A DNA stretch of 42,640 nucleotides from an uncultured Mageeibacillus sp. (GTDB taxonomy: Bacteria > Bacillota > Clostridia > Saccharofermentanales > DTU023): contig CAYFQU010000003.1 in NCBI GenBank assembly GCA_964345335.1, positions 4,294 to 46,933 of the forward strand, in the 5' to 3' direction. Under the pieces are notes generated by a model. The model ran no database searches, was not told the origin of the DNA, and worked only from the letters and a program-made list of their open reading frames with translations. This document shows, piece by piece, positions 34,504-42,095 of this stretch; the first letter of the stretch is position 1, and each line of letters starts with the position of its first letter. A program made the translations under genes and the position numbers.

Positions 34504-36249
34504 ATGTTTAAAAAGCTTTTACAAAGCCTGAGAGAATATAAAGTTCCTTCTCTTTTGACAGGATTGTTAATTATTCTTGAATCGATCATCGAATGTTTTA
34601 TTCCGTTCATCACGGCTGATTTAATTAATAATTTAGAAAATCAGAGCGATAATATGAAAGTTGTTATTAACCGTGGGCTATTGTTATTGTTGATGGCTTT
34701 TTTGGCTTTGATTTGCGGTGGTTTGGCCGGTATGACCAGTGCGAAAGCATCCGCCGGATTTGCCAAAAACCTGCGTGGAGATTTATTTCGCAAAATCCAA
34801 AGTTTTTCCTTTGAAAACACGGATCGTTTCTCCTCCTCGACTTTAGTGACAAGATTGACCACAGATGTCAGCAATGTACAAATGGCCTACATGCTGATTA
34901 TACGCAATTTAATCAGAGCACCGCTGATGATGATTTTTTCGATTGTCATCGCCTATCGAATGGGCGGAAAATTAGCTTTATCCTTTGTGATCATCGTACC
35001 GGTATTATCTTTCGGTCTGTATTTAATCGGCCGTTTCGCCTTGCCCACTTTCAAAAGAATTTTCAAAAAGTACGATAAATTAAATGAATCGATTGAAGAA
35101 AATGTCAGAGGTATGCGCGTCGTCAAAGGATTTGCCAGAGAGGAATTTGAAAAGAAGAAATTTGCCAAGGCTGCCAATGACATTCGCATTGACTTTACGA
35201 GGGCGGAAAAGATCGTTTCTTTAAGCGCACCTTTAATGCAAATTTGTATTTATTTTAATTTGCTCTTTGTGCTTTACATGGGTGCGAAATTGATTATGGT
35301 CAATGCCGGTACGACCATCGGTGTCGGTGAAATTTCCGCCATGCTGACTTATGGTATACAGATCATGATGCAATTAATGATGCTCAACATGGTCTATGTG
35401 ATGCTAACTATGTCCAGTGAATCCATGAAGAGAATTGAGGAAATTTTGAATGAGAAATCGACTTTGACTTCTCTATCTGATGCCATTATGGAAGTACCTG
35501 ATGGCTCCGTTGAATTCAAGCAGGTTAATTTCAAATATTCCAAGCGAGCTGAGAAAAACGCCTTGAGTGATATCAATATCGCTATTGCTTCCGGCATGAC
35601 AGTCGGCATTTTAGGTGGCACCGGGGACGGCATATCATCCTTGGTACAATTGATTCCCCGCTTATATGACGCCACGGAAGGCGTGGTCAAAGTAGGCGGA
35701 CACGATGTCCGAGAATATGATTTAACTGTATTGCGCGATGCCGTTTCCGTAGTCCTGCAAAAAAATGTTTTATTTTCTGGAACGATTAAAGAAAACCTGC
35801 GCTGGGGCAATGAACATGCAACAGATGAACAAATGATTCACGCCTGTGAGCTCGCCAGGGCACATGACTTTATCATGTCTTTCCCGGATCAATATGACAC
35901 TAAAATTGAACAGGGCGGAACGAATGTTTCCGGCGGACAAAAACAAAGACTTTGTATCGCACGCGCCCTATTGAAAAATCCCAAAGTATTGATTCTTGAT
36001 GATTCTACCAGTGCTGTTGATACCAAAACCGATTCTCAAATCCGTGAATCTTTTGCCGAATATATACCTGACATCACTAAAATTATTATCTCCCAACGCG
36101 TTTCATCCGTTGAACATGCCGATTTAATCATTGTGATGGAAAATGGCTCAGTAGTCGATCAGGGCAAACATCAGGATTTATTAAAGCGTTGTACAATTTA
36201 TCAGGAAATCTATACCGAACAAAATAAAGGTGGTGATTTTGATGACTAA
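34504..36249 (+). CDS. ABC exporter permease/ATPase half-transporter carrying the degenerate nucleotide-binding site
   Basis: 581 aa. A six-helix transmembrane domain plus a nucleotide-binding domain. Walker A is degenerate (GGTGDGISS, no Lys-Ser/Thr). Walker B and the catalytic residue read ILDDSTS (Glu replaced by Asp-Ser). The H-loop His is replaced (ISQRVSS). The signature motif VSGGQKQR is intact. Confidence 0.8.
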   Translation: MFKKLLQSLREYKVPSLLTGLLIILESIIECFIPFITADLINNLENQSDNMKVVINRGLLLLLMAFLALICGGLAGMTSAKASAGFAKNLRGDLFRKIQSFSFENTDRFSSSTLVTRLTTDVSNVQMAYMLIIRNLIRAPLMMIFSIVIAYRMGGKLALSFVIIVPVLSFGLYLIGRFALPTFKRIFKKYDKLNESIEENVRGMRVVKGFAREEFEKKKFAKAANDIRIDFTRAEKIVSLSAPLMQICIYFNLLFVLYMGAKLIMVNAGTTIGVGEISAMLTYGIQIMMQLMMLNMVYVMLTMSSESMKRIEEILNEKSTLTSLSDAIMEVPDGSVEFKQVNFKYSKRAEKNALSDINIAIASGMTVGILGGTGDGISSLVQLIPRLYDATEGVVKVGGHDVREYDLTVLRDAVSVVLQKNVLFSGTIKENLRWGNEHATDEQMIHACELARAHDFIMSFPDQYDTKIEQGGTNVSGGQKQRLCIARALLKNPKVLILDDSTSAVDTKTDSQIRESFAEYIPDITKIIISQRVSSVEHADLIIVMENGSVVDQGKHQDLLKRCTIYQEIYTEQNKGGDFDD

Positions 36250-38146
36250 GAAAAAATCTTCACAAAAGTCAAAACCGTTTGCTCGTTTGCTCAAATTACT
36301 TTTTTCCTCCTATCCGGTAGCATTGCCCTTAATTATTCTGAGCATCATCATTTCAGCAGCAGTCAGTGCCGTTCCGGCGATTTTTCAACAAAAAGTATTG
36401 GCAATTATCAGTAAATATGCGGACAGCGGTAACTATAACTGGTCGGCAGTGAAAGCGGAAATGATTCCCGTCATCAGCATACTGATCGTCCTTTATATCA
36501 TTTCCATGATTTTATACACCATTCAAATGCAGGGCATGGCGAGCATTACCCAAGGCTTTTTAGATAAAATCAGAAGACGGCTGTTCAACGGCATGCAGAA
36601 TTTGCCGGTTCGCTTCTTTGATACACATCAACACGGCGATATCATGAGCTATTATACTAATGACATCGATACCTTGCGTCAATTGATTTTTCAGGCTTTA
36701 CCGAATTTGATCCGTTCCGGCGTGATCGTGCTCAGCGTACTCGGCATTATGCTTTGGTACAGTTTCGTGATGACTGGGATCGTGCTTGTCGGCATTGCTT
36801 TCATGATTTTTGTTTCCAAAAAAATTGCCGGGGGCTCCGCAAAATATTTTATGCAGCAACAGCAATCCATCGGCAAAGCAGAAGGCTTTATTCAGGAGAT
36901 GATGAATGGCCAAAAAGTGATCAAGGTTTTTAACCATGAAAAAGAGGTCATTAAAGACTTTGATCAAGTCAATCAGAAATTATTTGATGATTCTTATCGG
37001 GCACATGCTTATGCCAATGCTCTGGGTCCGGTGATCATGAATATCGGGAATGTTCTCTATGTGTTCGTAGCAACTTTAGGCGGCCTCTATCTTCTGTCCG
37101 GTCTGCCGAATTATAGCATTTCCGGTATGGCCTTTTCGATTGCCATCCTCGTCCCGTATTTAAATATGACCAAGCAATTCACCGGAAATCTAAATCAGGT
37201 ATCGCAATTGGTCAATAATGTCATCATGGCGGTTGCCGGAACAAGAAGAATTTTTGATTTGATGGATCAGAAACCCGAAGTTGACGAAGGGCAGGTATCC
37301 TTGATTCGCTGTACCGTCGACTGCAATCAACAAATTCAGGAGAGTGAAGATTATACAGGAAAATGGGCTTGGAAAATTCCCCAAAAAGACGGCAGCTATC
37401 AACTGAAGCTCTTAGCCGGCGATATGCGTATGAAACATGTTGATTTCGGTTATGATCCAGATAAAATGATTTTACATGATATTTCCGTCTATGCCGAACC
37501 CGGTCAAAAAGTAGCATTTGTCGGCTCTACCGGTGCTGGAAAAACAACCATTATCAATTTATTAAACCGCTTTTATGAAATAGATGAAGGCACAATTACA
37601 GTGGATGGTATCGATATTAAAGAAATTCGAAAAAGCGATCTGCGCCGTTCTCTGGGTATCGTTTTGCAAGATACCAATCTATTTACCGGCACGGTATACG
37701 ATAATATTCGCTATGGTAACTTGGATGCCACAGACGCGGAATGCGAGGCCGCAGCAAAATTAGTCGGGGCCAATGATTTTATCGAACGTTTGCCGGATGG
37801 TTACCGAACGCAATTATCCAATAACGGAGCAAATCTATCGCAAGGCCAACGCCAATTGATAGCGATAGCCAGGGCCGCTGTCGCTGATCCTCCGATTTTA
37901 ATTTTGGATGAAGCCACCTCCTCTATCGATACCAGAACGGAGGCAATCGTGCAAAAAGGCATGGATATGTTGATGCATGGCAGAACCGTTTTTGTCATAG
38001 CCCATCGTCTTTCAACGGTCATGAATTCAGATGTCATCATGGTTATGGAGCAAGGTCATATCATCGAAAGAGGAACGCATCAGGACTTAATCGCCGCAGG
38101 CGGCACCTACTATCAGCTTTATACCGGTGCTTTCGAGTTGGAATAA
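36242..38146 (+). CDS. ABC exporter permease/ATPase half-transporter carrying the consensus nucleotide-binding site
   Basis: About 634 aa. Canonical Walker A GSTGAGKTT, signature LSQGQRQL, Walker B plus catalytic Glu ILILDEATS, and H-loop AHRLS. The start is placed at the ATG at 36242, which has an AAAGGTGGTGA ribosome-binding site. It overlaps the upstream stop by 8 nt. Confidence 0.8.
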   Translation: MTKKKSSQKSKPFARLLKLLFSSYPVALPLIILSIIISAAVSAVPAIFQQKVLAIISKYADSGNYNWSAVKAEMIPVISILIVLYIISMILYTIQMQGMASITQGFLDKIRRRLFNGMQNLPVRFFDTHQHGDIMSYYTNDIDTLRQLIFQALPNLIRSGVIVLSVLGIMLWYSFVMTGIVLVGIAFMIFVSKKIAGGSAKYFMQQQQSIGKAEGFIQEMMNGQKVIKVFNHEKEVIKDFDQVNQKLFDDSYRAHAYANALGPVIMNIGNVLYVFVATLGGLYLLSGLPNYSISGMAFSIAILVPYLNMTKQFTGNLNQVSQLVNNVIMAVAGTRRIFDLMDQKPEVDEGQVSLIRCTVDCNQQIQESEDYTGKWAWKIPQKDGSYQLKLLAGDMRMKHVDFGYDPDKMILHDISVYAEPGQKVAFVGSTGAGKTTIINLLNRFYEIDEGTITVDGIDIKEIRKSDLRRSLGIVLQDTNLFTGTVYDNIRYGNLDATDAECEAAAKLVGANDFIERLPDGYRTQLSNNGANLSQGQRQLIAIARAAVADPPILILDEATSSIDTRTEAIVQKGMDMLMHGRTVFVIAHRLSTVMNSDVIMVMEQGHIIERGTHQDLIAAGGTYYQLYTGAFELE

Positions 38147-38168
38147 TGAATTGATTTGAGGTTGAAGA

Positions 38169-38597
38169 ATGTCCAAACAAAATGAAATTATTTCAAGCTG
38201 TTTACAGCTAAGCCGTACAATCATCGCCAATCGCAATAAAATACTTGCACCGCTCGGCTTAACTTCTGCCCAGGCCGGTCTTCTGATTTATATCATGAGA
38301 AAATCAAAAGAACAGGAAATCACCGTTGCCGATATGGTTGAGCATTTTTCACTGACTCATCAAACCATCAGCGGGATCATCTCCCGTTTAATCGAAAAAA
38401 ACTTTATTGAGAAAGTGAAATCCGAAAAGGATTCTCGTTGTTATATTATTCATCTGACAACAGAAGGCTTAAAAATAAAAGAGATGTTGCATGCTCATTC
38501 TCTGAAATCACAGAATCAGATGCTGGCAACATTTTCTGACAGTGAAATCGAACAATTTCTGCACTATTTAAAAAGGGCTAGTGCAAATCTTGACTAG
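38169..38597 (+). CDS. MarR-family transcriptional regulator
   Basis: 142 aa with a winged helix-turn-helix (LTSAQAGLLIYIMRK ... EHFSLTHQTISGIISRLIEKNFIEK). Confidence 0.75.
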   Translation: MSKQNEIISSCLQLSRTIIANRNKILAPLGLTSAQAGLLIYIMRKSKEQEITVADMVEHFSLTHQTISGIISRLIEKNFIEKVKSEKDSRCYIIHLTTEGLKIKEMLHAHSLKSQNQMLATFSDSEIEQFLHYLKRASANLD

Positions 38598-38628
38598 CCC
38601 TTTATTGATATTCATAGTAAAGATAAAA

Positions 38629-39492
38629 TCAGAATTTCCCGCTAGAACCGCCATGCGAACTGCCGGATGAGGAAGTATGAGTACTGGACCCTCCGCCGCC
38701 TCCGCCTGAACTGCTGCTGCGCGGAATTGGGGTTGAGGTAACATTGCTATATAAGAATAAATCTCTGTTATCCTGTAATTCAAAAGAGTCGCGAAGGATA
38801 TAATTATTGGCTGCCGCCTGTCTCCGTACAGATTTCAACTGATTTTTCATCGATGAAACAATCGCCTCAGAGAGCATCAGAGCGACAATTAACATCGTCG
38901 GCAACCAGTACCAAGCCAAAGGTTTTTTTGGCAAATGGTCATAGTCATAGGGTGTTCCCTGCTCGTACTGATTTAAATAATCATCGCATAGATTAACAAA
39001 CTTTTTGAAGCCCTTCGCATATTTGGCATCGCTGATATTCGATATGAATTGATCGATCATATAACTCTGACCGGCATCGGTAAAAGCGTCAATCGACTGA
39101 CCGGAAGTCGAAATTGCCCAATCTCGCTCTTCCATGCTCAATAAAAACAAGATTCCATTAAAATCTTTTGTCATGCCAAAACCGTTATAATCAAAGAAAT
39201 CATCCGCAAATTCTGTCGGTGTTTTATCACCGATCGAATCGACCGTCACAATGACAATATCATGTTGATGTTTTTCACTGATTTCATCTAACTGCTCCAA
39301 GAGCTCAGCTTCTTCCTCCGAGGTGAGCAAATCCGCATCATCGACTAGGCGGGGCGCTAAACGCCTGTCAGCTCGTTGATGCATTTGCTCAAAATCTTCC
39401 GCTGTCAAATTCTCAGCTTTTACGGATAACCCAAATAGGGGTAAGACAAATATGATCAGAAATAAGATCATCGCTACTATTCTTTTTCTCAT
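38629..39492 (-). CDS. TPM-domain membrane protein (YdjH/YgcG-like) with a C-terminal Gly/Ser-rich tail
   Basis: 287 aa. A signal or anchor helix, then a TPM (TLP18.3/Psb32/MOLO-1) phosphatase-like domain, then a second transmembrane helix (WYWLPTMLIVALMLS). The C-terminus reads SSSGGGGGGSSTHTSSSGSSHGGSSGKF. Confidence 0.65.
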   Translation of the reverse strand: MRKRIVAMILFLIIFVLPLFGLSVKAENLTAEDFEQMHQRADRRLAPRLVDDADLLTSEEEAELLEQLDEISEKHQHDIVIVTVDSIGDKTPTEFADDFFDYNGFGMTKDFNGILFLLSMEERDWAISTSGQSIDAFTDAGQSYMIDQFISNISDAKYAKGFKKFVNLCDDYLNQYEQGTPYDYDHLPKKPLAWYWLPTMLIVALMLSEAIVSSMKNQLKSVRRQAAANNYILRDSFELQDNRDLFLYSNVTSTPIPRSSSSGGGGGGSSTHTSSSGSSHGGSSGKF

Positions 39493-39505
39493 ATTTTTCC
39501 CTCCG

Positions 39506-40600
39506 TTAAAACAATAAGTGAATCAGCCATGCTCCGCCGTAGAGCAGAATAAAAGACAATAGGAAGATCAGCCAGAACCAACGATTTTTAGCAGCTTTAT
39601 CCATAGGCAAATCACCAACAAATCGGCCGGTTTCACCGTTCATCGCAAATATATAATCTTTATCCTTATACCTTGAGTTCAAAATCCAAACAGGATACAA
39701 AGCATATTTCGCCACGCTGTTGCTCAATTGTATACTGGAACTTTCTCTGGTAATACTTGCATAGCCATGTACCGTATCACTAAAAATTTGTGAAGTACTC
39801 TCTTCTATGCGCTCATTAGCCTTAGCGATACACTGATCCGCATTCTCATCATAGCGGTCTGCCAGATAGCCGGACAGATAGCCCGGATTGAAAGGAACCA
39901 GTTTAGAAACATCAAATGGTTCAATGCTTTGCATTAAGTCATCCGGCATTTTCGCGGAAGCGTCAACCGGCACTTTATCAAAGAGCACATGACCGCTTCT
40001 CAAGATGGAGAAATATCTTGTCTCCGTATATTGATTACGCGAATCAGACCAAGTTCTAATCTTTTTCCCGAGATAACGCATGAAGCCATTCGCCTCGGCA
40101 TCAAATATCCAAAACGGAACATACAGAGCTTTTATTTTTTGAATATGATCCTCTTTGCTGAAATCTTTGGGTAATAAACGTTTGCCCTTTATATGATTGC
40201 GAAAAGCCTCCATCGCCTGTTCTTTATTAAATTGAAACGGGATCAATAAATCAGGCTTTAAATCACCGCTTATCTTATCCGATAAAACAACTGGATTATC
40301 ACAATATGGACAACTGGTTGCGACCGTTGTCGGATCGCCGACAATCTGTCCACCGCAAGATTGACAAACATAAACCGCCAAATCTGCATCTCCATCCTGC
40401 CAATGTGAACTCGTTTCAAGATTCCATGAAAAATTATCTTGCCCAGGCATATGCTTCAGAGCATCATCATATTGTTCTAAAATTGATTGCTCATATTCAG
40501 TGCCGCAATATGTACATTTCATGTTCTGGCTTTGGCTATCAAAAACGACCGGACCGCCGCATGAAGGGCATTTGAAATCCATAATATTCGACATAAACAC
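39506..40600 (-). CDS. Double zinc-ribbon membrane protein (YdjG-like)
   Basis: 364 aa. Two N-terminal C4 zinc ribbons (CPSCGG..CTYCG and CQSCGG..CPYCD), a cytoplasmic domain of about 230 aa, and one C-terminal transmembrane helix (WFWLIFLLSFILLYGGAWLIHLLF). Confidence 0.6.
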   Translation of the reverse strand: MFMSNIMDFKCPSCGGPVVFDSQSQNMKCTYCGTEYEQSILEQYDDALKHMPGQDNFSWNLETSSHWQDGDADLAVYVCQSCGGQIVGDPTTVATSCPYCDNPVVLSDKISGDLKPDLLIPFQFNKEQAMEAFRNHIKGKRLLPKDFSKEDHIQKIKALYVPFWIFDAEANGFMRYLGKKIRTWSDSRNQYTETRYFSILRSGHVLFDKVPVDASAKMPDDLMQSIEPFDVSKLVPFNPGYLSGYLADRYDENADQCIAKANERIEESTSQIFSDTVHGYASITRESSSIQLSNSVAKYALYPVWILNSRYKDKDYIFAMNGETGRFVGDLPMDKAAKNRWFWLIFLLSFILLYGGAWLIHLLF

Positions 40601-40649
40601 CTCTCCAATATCAAATAGGATTTTCTAAACTGAAAATCCTATCTTTCAA

Positions 40650-41981
40650 TCATCTTATAATATCTTGTTCATCAAAAGGATCGCCGCATTCCGGACAGAA
40701 TTTTGGAGGATTAGAAGGATCTTCTGGTTCAAAACCACATTTACTGCATTTGTATGAATGAGCTGCAGACGGTTTCGGTTTGCCGCAATTTTGACAGAAT
40801 TTTCCCTGATTAACCGTACCGCATTCACAAGTCCAGCCCTGTTCCGGTTTTGCTGTGCCGCATTCCGGACAGAACTTACCGTTAGTGACTGTTTTGCATT
40901 TCGGACAAGTCCAGGAATCAGCTGTATTCTGTGTTTGCTGATTTTGAGCCTGTCTGGCAGCCTGCTGTTGTTGACCCATCGCAAATAAATCCTGAATATT
41001 GCTGCCACCGGCATTCTGAGCCATACCCATACCGATAAAGCCACCCATGGCACCACCCTCATTTGAAGCGGCCGCTTTCATCGCATCGGCTTGTGCTCCT
41101 GCTAAGGTAGCTGCCGCTAAGCTGGCATCTCTTAATCTTGCACTCAACTGTGCATCCTTGATCATTTGTGCATCTTCTTCCGGTAAGGTAATCGGATTGA
41201 GCGCAATGGAAATGACTTTGATACCTCTTAGTTCAGACCACTTTTTAGATAATTCCTGATTCATCAAATCAGCTAATTCGTTCGCATGTCCGGGCAATTC
41301 ATTCGGTCGGATCTGCTGCGTGGAAATCGCTGCAAAAGCAGGTTGTAAAGCATTGATAAATTCCGTTTTTAATTGTCTATCAATTTCTTCTTTTTGATAT
41401 TGCCCTTCCACATTGCCACTGACATTCGTATAAAATAAAATCGGATCGGTTATACGATAAGAGTAGACACCGGAACAACGCACCGCTACATCAATATCCA
41501 AATTGATATTGCGGTCAACAACTCGGAAAGGAATTGGATTCGGAGTACCGAATTTATTATCCAAAATTTCTTTTGTATTAAAATAATAAACTCTTTGATC
41601 TTTCCCGGTATCACCGCCAAATGTAAATCTTCGTCCGATTTGCTTGAAGGTCTCCATAATAGATTCGCCTAATTTACCGGTAAAAATACTGGGTTCAGTT
41701 GAAGAATCCCAGGTATATTCACCCGGTACAGCGCTCAACTCAACGACTTTCCCCTGTTCAACAATGATCATGCATTGCCCGTCATTTACAACGATACCAG
41801 AACCGTTGGAAATAATATTATCGCTCCCTTTGGTATTGGAGGAACGATTGCCGATTACCTTTTGACCTTTTCTTACCAATATATCATTCGGTAATGATTC
41901 ACAGTAAAAAAACTCACGCCATTGATCGGCTAAAACACCACCGGCAGCGCCTGCAATTGCTTTAATTAAACCCATAATCAC
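40650..41981 (-). CDS. SPFH/band-7 superfamily protein (YdjI / COG4260-like) with three C-terminal zinc-ribbon repeats
   Basis: 443 aa. The SPFH-like core is followed by a Gln/Ala-rich linker and three tandem CxxC-X7-10-CxxCG ribbons (CPKCKTVTNGKFCPECG, CECGTVNQGKFCQNCG, CSKCGFEP..FCPECG). Confidence 0.65.
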   Translation of the reverse strand: MIMGLIKAIAGAAGGVLADQWREFFYCESLPNDILVRKGQKVIGNRSSNTKGSDNIISNGSGIVVNDGQCMIIVEQGKVVELSAVPGEYTWDSSTEPSIFTGKLGESIMETFKQIGRRFTFGGDTGKDQRVYYFNTKEILDNKFGTPNPIPFRVVDRNINLDIDVAVRCSGVYSYRITDPILFYTNVSGNVEGQYQKEEIDRQLKTEFINALQPAFAAISTQQIRPNELPGHANELADLMNQELSKKWSELRGIKVISIALNPITLPEEDAQMIKDAQLSARLRDASLAAATLAGAQADAMKAAASNEGGAMGGFIGMGMAQNAGGSNIQDLFAMGQQQQAARQAQNQQTQNTADSWTCPKCKTVTNGKFCPECGTAKPEQGWTCECGTVNQGKFCQNCGKPKPSAAHSYKCSKCGFEPEDPSNPPKFCPECGDPFDEQDIIR

Positions 41982-42070
41982 AACTCCTTTTTACAGTACT
42001 TCCAAAGCTATATTTTGATTTGATTATTGATTTGATTATATTTTATTGTATTATATTTTTCAATATAAAA

Positions 42071-42095
42071 TATAAAAAACCGTTCTAGATAACGG
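42071..42095 (-). terminator. Rho-independent terminator after the hydrogenase gene
   Basis: On the minus strand, a 5-bp stem CCGTT/AACGG with a 6-nt loop followed by TTTTTTAT. This is nested inside a longer inverted repeat, AACCGTTCTA ... TAGAACGGTT. Confidence 0.5.

What the first reader, a model, noticed from the sequence alone, without database searches (positions are those of the whole stretch)
38629..41981. ydjGHI-like SPFH / zinc-ribbon / TPM membrane module lacking an adjacent pspA
Three co-directional genes encode the following:
- an SPFH (COG4260, 'virion core protein'-like) protein with three tandem C-terminal zinc ribbons;
- a double zinc-ribbon protein with a C-terminal membrane anchor;
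- a TPM-domain protein with two transmembrane helices and a poly-Gly/Ser tail.

This combination matches the architecture of the B. subtilis ydjG, ydjH and ydjI genes that follow pspA (ydjF). Here the order is I-G-H, and the gene immediately upstream is an [FeFe]-hydrogenase separated by a terminator. No PspA/IM30 gene accompanies the module.

The triplicated ribbon array on the SPFH protein and the G/S-rich tail on the TPM protein are elaborations worth characterising. The module may act as a stand-alone membrane-stress scaffold, or recruit a PspA encoded elsewhere.
Basis: partly seen in the sequence, partly recalled or inferred. Interest (0 to 1): 0.55.

Follow-up and report, generated by a model that had tools for sequence, protein, structure and literature searches.

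The report
PspA-less SamGHI-type membrane stress module
This is an ordinary member of a very common clostridial three-gene membrane module (a scaffold protein plus two membrane partners) related to Bacillus subtilis ydjGHI/samGHI, but in a different gene order and never next to the stress protein PspA.

Summary
Three co-directional minus-strand genes encode:
- a cytosolic SPFH (Band_7_1) protein with three C-terminal zinc ribbons;
- a tail-anchored protein with two zinc ribbons;
- a TPM protein with a Gly/Ser tail.

Each is homologous over most or all of its length to B. subtilis YdjI, YdjG and YdjH (24%, 32% and 21% identity). The ydjGHI reading is therefore supported.

The features flagged as special are not special to this window:
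- **Gene order.** In 80 species genomes, 61 have the same SPFH→ZnR→TPM order.
- **No PspA.** None of 87 related loci has a PspA within 10 kb.
- **Ribbon number.** Three or four ribbons is the norm.
- **G/S tail.** The tail ends in a conserved G-x-F/W, a hallmark also seen in YdjH and E. coli YgcG.

The Bacillus pspA-G-H-I operon uses a distinct SPFH subfamily (~23–25% identity, one ribbon).

The most likely function is a stand-alone SamGHI-type envelope-surveillance complex. Whether it uses a PspA encoded elsewhere could not be tested.

This is a modestly interesting, widespread variant of a known system. The PspA-centred surveys I read do not describe it.

The parts
42035..42063 (-). Promoter-like site TTGAAA-17 nt-TATAAT, upstream of the SPFH gene
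   Evidence: 11 of 12 consensus matches; sequence read. Function is inferred, not shown.
42080..42095 (-). Weak terminator-like hairpin plus T-run after the hydrogenase gene
   Evidence: The fold gives -4.9 kcal/mol, z=-1.5, and 15 of 200 shuffles fold as well.
40650..41975 (-). SPFH (Band_7_1) gene, YdjI/SamI-like, 441 aa, with no TM segment. The SPFH domain is encoded at about 41148-41816 and an A/Q/G/M-rich linker at about 40920-41087.
   Evidence: Pfam PF13421, E=4e-21. 100% match to P0001. 24% identity to B. subtilis YdjI. The AF2 core matches stomatin, HflK/C and prohibitin at Foldseek E~1e-9. Linker composition.
40683..40913 (-). Three tandem C4 zinc ribbons at the C-terminus of the SPFH protein (residues 355-431)
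   Evidence: Cys positions and repeat units. The copy number is 2-4 in relatives.
40613..40644 (-). Intercistronic 13-bp hairpin directly after the SPFH stop codon, followed by UUGAUAUU
   Evidence: -15.0 kcal/mol, z=-4.2. Comparable hairpins occur in 12 of 36 relatives with a 20-200 nt spacer. Its role as a partial terminator or mRNA stabiliser is inferred.
39506..40594 (-). YdjG/SamG-like gene, 362 aa: two N-terminal C4 zinc ribbons, a central alpha+beta region, and a C-terminal TM anchor
38629..39492 (-). YdjH/SamH-like TPM gene, 287 aa: signal or anchor segment, TPM domain, TM helix, and a cytoplasmic tail ending ...SSTHTSSSGSSHGGSSGKF
   Evidence: Pfam PF04536, E=1e-31. Hydropathy. 21% identity to YdjH across the full length. 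Tail conservation. GGAGGG ribosome-binding site 13 nt after the ZnR stop codon.
38567..38603 (-). Strong terminator hairpin plus U-run after the TPM gene. It overlaps the 3' end of the convergent MarR gene.
   Evidence: -17.3 kcal/mol, z=-4.7, and 0 of 200 shuffles fold as well. Sequence read.

Best explanation
The locus encodes a self-contained SamGHI/YdjGHI-type envelope-surveillance complex.

**Proposed mechanism (topology and interactions are inferred).**
- The TPM protein exposes its TPM domain outside the membrane and its conserved G/S-rich, G-x-F tail inside.
- It pairs with the tail-anchored two-ribbon protein to form a membrane receptor or sensor.
- Together they dock a cytosolic, ring- or cage-forming SPFH oligomer. 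The SPFH protein has no membrane anchor of its own. It carries a flexible A/Q/G/M linker and three zinc ribbons that could serve as docking modules.
- By analogy with B. subtilis, the SPFH protein organises or fluidises the local membrane and restrains signalling by the two membrane partners.
- In this subfamily the complex works without a dedicated, co-transcribed PspA.

**What is shown and what is not.**
- Shown here: homology of all three proteins, domain make-up, conserved gene order, and absence of a neighbouring pspA.
- Inferred: topology, physical interactions, the role of the ribbons and tail, and PspA-independence at the level of the whole genome.
For: **Homology and domains.**
- All three proteins are homologous, over most or all of their length, to YdjI, YdjG and YdjH of a real Bacillus pspA-ydjGHI locus.
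- Pfam domains are as expected.
- The SPFH fold is confirmed against stomatin, HflK/C and prohibitin cages.
- The central domain of the ZnR protein best matches YpeB/PepSY-like folds. This agrees with PMC11237479.

**Conserved cassette in changing surroundings.**
- Of 80 species genomes, 48 have a contiguous SPFH-ZnR-TPM triad and 13 have the triad with an insert. Flanking genes differ between loci.
- ZnR and TPM genes are almost always within 15 nt of each other or overlap. That fits a tight G-H pair.

**No PspA nearby.** None is found in the window or within 10 kb in 87 loci. E. coli, Paenibacillus and Bacillus PspA detect one another as positive controls.

**Published experiments in B. subtilis.**
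- YdjG/H anchor YdjI at the membrane (PMC8581546).
- The ΔsamI phenotypes depend on SamG/H but not on PspA (bioRxiv 10.64898/2026.02.06.704340).

**Genomic setting.** The window context is housekeeping genes (HprK, MurB, RapZ, WhiA).
Against: - SPFH identity to YdjI is only 23-24%, and TPM identity to YdjH is only 19-21%. Functional transfer from B. subtilis is therefore an extrapolation.
- No interaction, localisation or expression data exist for this subfamily.
- The source genome could not be searched for a distal PspA/IM30.
- In 6 of 80 genomes the SPFH gene stands without the two partners nearby. The SPFH protein may therefore also act alone or with other partners.
Confidence: 0.55

Rival explanations
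1. The same SamGHI-type complex forms, but its job is, as first described in B. subtilis, to recruit and nucleate a PspA/IM30 (ESCRT-III-like) effector. That effector is simply encoded elsewhere in the genome.
For: - In B. subtilis, YdjI together with YdjG/H is required for PspA foci (PMC8581546).
- Ravi et al. propose recruitment of a distal PspA for other PspA-free partner operons (PMC11237479).
- All three proteins are homologous to their B. subtilis counterparts.
Against: - No PspA lies within 10 kb in 87 loci.
- Both pspA-linked loci fetched use a different SPFH subfamily, with 23-25% identity and one ribbon.
- PspA is dispensable for the SamI developmental phenotype.
- Whether these genomes have any PspA at all was not testable here.
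Confidence: 0.3
2. The functional core is the extracytoplasmic TPM domain, acting as a phosphatase or as an assembly and repair factor for membrane or envelope complexes. The SPFH and ZnR proteins serve only as regulators or scaffolds for it.
For: - The TPM domain is the strongest Pfam hit (E=1e-31).
- There is a weak match to the photosystem II repair protein Psb32.
- PMC11237479 reports competing phosphatase and assembly hypotheses for TPM.
- The TPM and ZnR genes are the most tightly coupled pair.
Against: - No catalytic-site analysis was done.
- The Psb32 score is far below its cut-off (25 vs 160 bits).
- In B. subtilis, the ΔsamI phenotype is attributed to unrestrained signalling by SamH.
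Confidence: 0.08
3. It is an anti-phage or abortive-infection membrane module. This reading is prompted by the old COG label 'virion core protein-like' for this SPFH family, and by SPFH and zinc-ribbon proteins being seen in defence contexts.
For: - Homologues appear in a few records of the phage collection.
- DUF4428, an accessory gene in 13 related loci, also occurs as an N-terminal domain of some homologues of the SNIPE anti-phage nuclease.
Against: - The SPFH and TPM proteins have no PADLOC hit. The ZnR protein has only weak zinc-ribbon matches.
- The window context is housekeeping genes, not an island.
- The cassette is near-ubiquitous across clostridial species, with at least 585 species genomes matched.
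- The 'phage' records are mostly short and all unannotated, so they may be host DNA.
Confidence: 0.03

Closest known systems
Bacillus subtilis pspA-ydjGHI (pspA-samGHI) operon
   Same: - It has the same three protein types, each with matching overall architecture and homology over most or all of its length.
  - SPFH Band_7_1 without a TM segment, followed by a low-complexity linker and a C-terminal zinc ribbon.
  - A protein with two ZnRs, a PepSY/YpeB-like region and a C-terminal TM.
  - A protein with a signal segment, a TPM domain, a TM helix and a G/S tail ending in F.
- The G and H genes are adjacent in both.
   Different: - There is no pspA.
- The SPFH gene comes first (I-G-H) instead of last.
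- The SPFH protein belongs to a separate subfamily: 23-24% identity, about 120 residues longer, and three ribbons instead of one.
- The promoter-like site looks like the housekeeping type. Whether it is sigma-W-like was not tested.
- A hairpin separates the SPFH gene from the G-H pair.
Enterococcus gallinarum SPFH / hypothetical / TPM triad (L007, NZ_CP116511.1)
   Same: - It has the same I-G-H order and no pspA nearby.
- Its SPFH protein is of the same subfamily, at 38% identity over the full length.
- Its Pfam domains are the same.
   Different: - It has two ribbons rather than three.
- It belongs to a different order (Lactobacillales).
- It is uncharacterised.
E. coli YgcG and other membrane TPM proteins
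   Same: It has a signal segment, a TPM domain, a membrane segment and a Gly/Ser-rich tail ending in an aromatic residue (...GGGGASGRW).
   Different: - In the 6-kb region fetched, ygcG has no SPFH or two-ribbon partner gene beside it. Its upstream neighbour there is yqcG.
- Its membrane region looks longer.
- Homology between the tails was judged by eye only.
Flotillin / NfeD (FloA, FloT with YqeZ or YuaF) and HflK/C-FtsH SPFH systems
   Same: The SPFH fold with a following helical region resembles the cage-forming SPFH proteins (Foldseek E 1e-9 to 1e-5).
   Different: - The SPFH protein has no TM segment or hairpin anchor.
- Pfam gave no flotillin-domain hit.
- No NfeD gene or protease gene is adjacent in the part of the window scanned.

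Membership tests
SamGHI / YdjGHI module (B. subtilis type) | A soluble SPFH protein of the Band_7_1 family with C-terminal zinc ribbon(s), homologous to YdjI | tested here: met
   PF13421, E=4e-21. No TM segment and three C4 ribbons. BLASTP to YdjI gives 24% over 321 aa, E=1e-9.
SamGHI / YdjGHI module (B. subtilis type) | A YdjG-like protein with two N-terminal zinc ribbons, a YpeB/NTF2-like domain and a C-terminal TM | tested here: met
SamGHI / YdjGHI module (B. subtilis type) | A YdjH-like membrane TPM protein with a low-complexity C-terminal tail | tested here: met
   PF04536, E=1e-31. 21% identity to YdjH over 290 aa, E=3e-12. The tail motif is shared.
SamGHI / YdjGHI module (B. subtilis type) | Co-transcription with pspA in the order pspA-G-H-I | tested here: not met
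   The order is I-G-H. There is no PspA in the window or in 87 related loci. Both Bacillus-type loci fetched do have pspA directly upstream.
SamGHI / YdjGHI module (B. subtilis type) | Sigma-W-dependent, envelope-stress-induced expression | not tested
   Only a sigma-70-type consensus scan was run. It finds TTGAAA-17-TATAAT. No ECF-type motif search or expression data were available.
SamGHI / YdjGHI module (B. subtilis type) | G/H recruit the SPFH protein to the membrane, and the SPFH protein restrains G/H signalling | not testable with these tools
   This is known only from B. subtilis experiments (PMC8581546; bioRxiv 10.64898/2026.02.06.704340).
Psp (PspA/IM30-centred) stress system | Presence of a PspA/IM30 effector gene in the locus | tested here: not met
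   Five PspA seeds and an HMM built from them find nothing at E<0.1 in the window or in 87 loci, while they detect each other. The genome-wide presence of PspA was not testable.
Flotillin-NfeD type SPFH operons | An SPFH protein with its own membrane anchor, paired with an NfeD-family gene | tested here: not met
   The SPFH protein has no hydrophobic segment. The neighbouring genes are the ZnR and TPM genes.
Known anti-phage defence systems (PADLOC-DB 2.0) | A match of any component to a defence-system model | tested here: not met
   The SPFH and TPM proteins have no hits. The ZnR protein has only weak ribbon-level matches (E=2e-4 and 6e-3, residues 5-41).
Membrane TPM (YgcG-like) proteins | An N-terminal signal or anchor, a TPM domain, TM segment(s), and a Gly-rich tail ending in an aromatic residue | tested here: met
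   56 of 58 orthologue tails end in F/W. E. coli YgcG ends ...ASGRW.

The most novel reading that the evidence does not exclude
The pspA-less I-G-H cassette may be an autonomous membrane-stress sensor or scaffold, and the predominant (possibly ancestral) form of the SamGHI system in Firmicutes. On this reading:
- the multi-ribbon SPFH cage docks onto the G-H receptor through its ribbons and the conserved G-x-F tail;
- PspA coupling is a later add-on restricted to the Bacillus lineage;
- SamGHI would then be an SPFH-based stress system in its own right, not an accessory of the Psp response.
Probability: 0.3. Interest if true: 0.55.

Novelty: new variant of a known kind. Interest (0 to 1): 0.35.

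Why it matters
**Link to current work.** The only experimental work on this system, in B. subtilis, has just moved from 'YdjI links PspA to the membrane' (2021) to 'SamGHI signals on its own and PspA is dispensable' (2026 preprint).

**What this survey adds.** A whole SPFH subfamily carries the three genes without pspA, in a fixed I-G-H order. It spans hundreds of clostridial species, many of them from gut and rumen, as well as enterococci. This is comparative support for the PspA-independent view. It also offers natural test beds for it.

**Testable interaction motifs.** Two sequence features were previously dismissed as low complexity:
- the variable two-to-four zinc-ribbon array on the SPFH protein;
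- the conserved ...SSTHxSSSGxxHGGxxGKF tail of the TPM protein.

**Limit.** For this particular window the locus is ordinary.

Tried and rejected
- **Source contig.** Exact-match look-ups of the window's SPFH and ZnR proteins failed. The region upstream of the hydrogenase and the rest of the genome could therefore not be read.
- **AlphaFold-database fold library.** It was not available. PDB libraries were used instead.
- **Sequence search of the PDB.** Only TPM domains (2kw7, 7tbr) and chance ribbon matches came back.
- **PADLOC and Rfam.** Nothing relevant.
- **E. coli PspA against plasmids.** The hits were mostly enterobacterial psp operons. The useful by-product was a Paenibacillus Lia-type locus with two PspA paralogues, used as seeds.
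- **Literature searches.**
  - SPFH + 'TPM domain' + 'zinc ribbon' returned nothing.
  - A broad YdjI/SamI/taxon search returned only noise.
  - PF13421, COG4260 and DUF4428 gave no paper on this module.
- **'Second SPFH copy' hits.** The ones checked are DUF4428 proteins that match only through their ribbons. The idea was rejected.
- **Possible pspA-ydjGH in the Paenibacillus locus.** The genes after pspA there are a LiaS/LiaR-like kinase and regulator. The idea was rejected.
- **B. subtilis YdjI probe.** All comparisons use the retrieved database protein P0242 (98% identical to the probe) and its locus L090.
Full report
**What is in the sequence**

Three adjacent genes lie on the minus strand.

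The first gene runs 41975..40650 and encodes 441 aa.
- The ATG at 41975 has an AAAGGAG 8 nt upstream. It gives the database protein P0001, a 100% match.
- The protein is a Band_7_1 SPFH protein (PF13421, E=4e-21, residues 54-276).
- It has no hydrophobic segment.
- After the SPFH domain comes an A/Q/G/M-rich linker. Three C4 zinc ribbons follow, of the type W-x-C-x(1,2)-C-x8-GKFC-x2-CG-x-KP.

The second gene runs 40594..39506 and encodes 362 aa (P0121, 100% match).
- It has two N-terminal C4 ribbons. Their eight cysteines are invariant in 47 homologues.
- It has one C-terminal hydrophobic helix.

The third gene runs 39492..38629 and encodes 287 aa.
- It has an N-terminal signal or anchor segment and a TPM domain (PF04536, E=1e-31).
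- It has one further TM helix and a Gly/Ser-rich tail.

The transcription signals fit one unit.
- Ribosome-binding sites precede all three starts.
- A near-consensus promoter-like site lies at 42063..42035.
- A strong terminator hairpin (-17.3 kcal/mol, z=-4.7) follows the TPM gene. It is shared with a convergent MarR gene.
- The 'terminator' after the upstream [FeFe]-hydrogenase fragment is weak: a 5-bp stem, -4.9 kcal/mol, z=-1.5.

**Is it ydjGHI-like?**

I retrieved a real Bacillus subtilis-group locus for comparison.
It found P0242, which is 98% identical and is named 'MULTISPECIES: SPFH domain-containing protein [Bacillus]'.
- The chromosome locus L090 encoding P0242 reads PspA_IM30 (227 aa), Zn-ribbon protein (341 aa), TPM (254 aa), Band_7_1 (323 aa). 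This matches the published pspA-ydjGHI operon.

BLASTP against the window proteins gives:

| Window protein | B. subtilis protein | Identity | Aligned length | E-value |
|---|---|---|---|---|
| ZnR | YdjG | 32% | 348 aa | 1e-71 |
| SPFH | YdjI | 24% | 321 aa (SPFH domain, linker, first ribbon) | 1e-9 |
| TPM | YdjH | 21% | 290 aa, including the tail | 3e-12 |

Structure predictions agree.
- The SPFH model is moderate overall (pLDDT 63.5, core about 80). It matches stomatin, HflK/C, prohibitin, erlin and flotillin cage subunits, with Foldseek E-values from 4e-9 to 1e-5.

**Is the locus unusual?**

It is not. The SPFH protein has more than 8,000 database homologues at 64-100% identity. The ZnR protein matches 7,019 cluster representatives at 50% identity, 1,633 of them at E≤1e-30. 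A scan of one genome per species found at least 585 species with a close SPFH relative, and 80 loci were kept with 10-kb flanks.

The layouts in those 80 loci are:

| Layout | Loci |
|---|---|
| Contiguous SPFH→ZnR→TPM | 48 |
| Same order with a 1-5 kb insert after the SPFH gene | 13 |
| SPFH gene without the partners nearby | 6 |
| SPFH–ZnR, contig ends before the TPM position | 3 |
| SPFH–ZnR present, TPM not detected | 2 |
| Contig ends less than 2.5 kb after the SPFH gene (not assessable) | 8 |

Further points:
- Flanking genes differ from locus to locus, so the triad moves as a cassette.
- ZnR and TPM genes are nearly always within about 15 nt of each other or overlap.
- Enterococcus gallinarum has the same I-G-H triad. 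Its SPFH protein is 38% identical.

PspA was sought with five seeds (E. coli PspA, two Paenibacillus paralogues, Bacillus PspA, and one more from L092) and with profile HMMs built from them. The seeds detect each other at E-values from 1e-5 to 1e-22. Nothing scores better than E=0.14 in the window or in the 87 related loci.

By contrast, both loci fetched with the Bacillus-type YdjI have pspA directly upstream, in the order pspA-G-H-I.

The two layouts go with two SPFH subfamilies:
- Window type: 410-470 aa, two to four ribbons.
- Bacillus type: about 325 aa, one ribbon, 23-25% identity to the window type.

The YdjG-like proteins are roughly equidistant from one another (30-35% identity).

**The two 'elaborations'**

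Ribbon number at the SPFH C-terminus is 3 in 55 loci, 4 in 28, and about 2 in 5 (alignment). Three is therefore the commonest state of a repeat that varies in copy number.

The TPM tail is not merely low complexity.
- 56 of 58 complete orthologues end in F or W, and 53 end in G-x-[FW].
- About half carry an S-T-H-x-S-S-S-G-x-x-H-G-G motif.
- B. subtilis YdjH ends ...GSRGSF. The unrelated-context E. coli TPM protein YgcG ends ...GGGGASGRW.
- The tail is thus a hallmark of membrane TPM proteins, and the literature already notes it as a 'low-complexity segment'.

**How it most likely works**

Topology inferred from hydropathy:
- The TPM domain faces outwards and its tail faces the cytoplasm.
- The ribbons and alpha+beta domain of the ZnR protein are cytoplasmic, held by a C-terminal anchor.
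- The SPFH protein is soluble.

Published B. subtilis experiments:
- YdjG/H are needed to bring YdjI, and with it PspA, to membrane foci. Loss of YdjI rigidifies the membrane (PMC8581546).
- ΔsamI causes chronic stress-like signalling that depends on SamG/H. ΔpspA has no such phenotype (bioRxiv 10.64898/2026.02.06.704340).

My best explanation (confidence 0.55) is a stand-alone SamGHI-type envelope-surveillance complex. The G-H pair is the membrane receptor or sensor. The SPFH oligomer is both the docked scaffold and the brake. The ribbons and the G-x-F tail are candidate docking elements, by inference only.

The main rival (0.30) is the same complex recruiting a PspA encoded elsewhere.

The minor rivals are a TPM-centred enzymatic or assembly role (0.08) and phage defence (0.03). 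Against defence:
- The SPFH and TPM proteins have no PADLOC hit, and the ZnR protein has only weak ribbon matches.
- The context is housekeeping.
- The cassette is near-ubiquitous.

**An extra detail bearing on expression**

A 13-bp hairpin sits directly after the SPFH stop codon (40613-40644; -15 kcal/mol, z=-4.2). Comparable hairpins, unrelated in sequence and several of them followed by T-runs, occur in 12 of 36 relatives with a 20-200 nt spacer. This would fit partial termination or transcript stabilisation that gives more SPFH protein than membrane partners. That is expected if many SPFH subunits dock on few receptors. This is inference only.

**Novelty and score**

The kind of system is known, and the domain architectures are already described.

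I found no description, in the papers I could read, of the systematic finding here. The two comparative surveys are PspA-centred (PMC9239133, PMC11237479). The finding is that a distinct SPFH subfamily carries the triad in I-G-H order, without pspA, across clostridia and enterococci.

I rate it a new variant of a known kind. This window is a routine member of that variant. Interest is 0.35.

Noticed in passing
L014:11443-12405, L044:11443-12309, L067:11412-12272, L030:11842-12795 and others; L001:4839-5666: In 13 of 80 related loci a 1-5 kb insert sits between the SPFH and ZnR genes. In most of them it encodes a DUF4428 (PF14471) zinc-ribbon protein of about 260-380 aa. Its N-terminus reads MGLFDKKYCDICGEKIGLLGNRKLEDGNLCKNCAKKLSP. 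In several of them the C-terminus carries GKFCxxCG ribbons like those of the SPFH protein. Small lipoproteins sometimes accompany it. It is a likely accessory subunit. The window has none.
   Followed up: partly
window 40613-40644 (minus strand): A stable intercistronic hairpin (-15 kcal/mol, z=-4.2) lies right after the SPFH stop codon. Non-homologous hairpins in the same position occur in 12 of 36 relatives. It may be a partial terminator or stabiliser that sets the ratio of SPFH protein to partners.
   Followed up: partly
window 38629-38700 (TPM C-terminus); L090:5206-5970; L094:3212-4084: The cytoplasmic tail of the TPM protein carries a conserved motif (...SSTHxSSSGxxHGGxxGKF) with a terminal aromatic residue. 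E. coli YgcG also has a Gly/Ser-rich tail ending in an aromatic residue, and its gene is preceded by yqcG, annotated 'cell envelope stress response protein'.
   Followed up: partly
window 34504-38597 (plus strand): Two ABC exporter genes with fused TMD-NBD domains (34504-36249 and 36230-38146) are followed by a MarR-family regulator (38169-38597). The MarR gene converges on the TPM gene and shares its terminator hairpin.
   Followed up: no
L007 (NZ_CP116511.1, Enterococcus gallinarum 'plasmid' pK205-4a-A, 484 kb): This record is labelled a plasmid but carries core genes around the triad (dnaX, recR, tmk, holB, rplJ/L/A/K). It is probably a chromid or a chromosome fragment.
   Followed up: no
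Phage-collection records OR848382.1, OR846934.1, OR846590.1, MT838724.1: Unannotated 'phage' records from Listeria, Enterococcus and human faeces encode full-length homologues of the SPFH protein at 36-61% identity. Most of these records are short (5-9 kb), but the Enterococcus one is 138 kb. They may be host DNA in phage preparations rather than phage genes.
   Followed up: no
L052:11956-13254: The ZnR-like ORF here is about 432 aa long and gives a faint TPM score within the same ORF. It could be a G-H fusion or a frameshift artefact.
   Followed up: no
L011, L013, L015, L031, L053, L070; L009: Six species genomes have the SPFH gene without ZnR or TPM genes in the 3.5-10 kb of downstream sequence available. 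In L009 the ZnR-TPM pair lies about 8 kb upstream on the other strand. The SPFH gene is thus the detachable part, and the G-H pair stays together.
   Followed up: partly
L089 (Paenibacillus cellulosilyticus NZ_CP054613.1, 4843-8530): This Lia-type locus has two tandem PspA paralogues separated by a PspC-domain gene, followed by a HisKA_3 kinase and a LuxR-type response regulator. It was used only as a source of PspA seeds.
   Followed up: no
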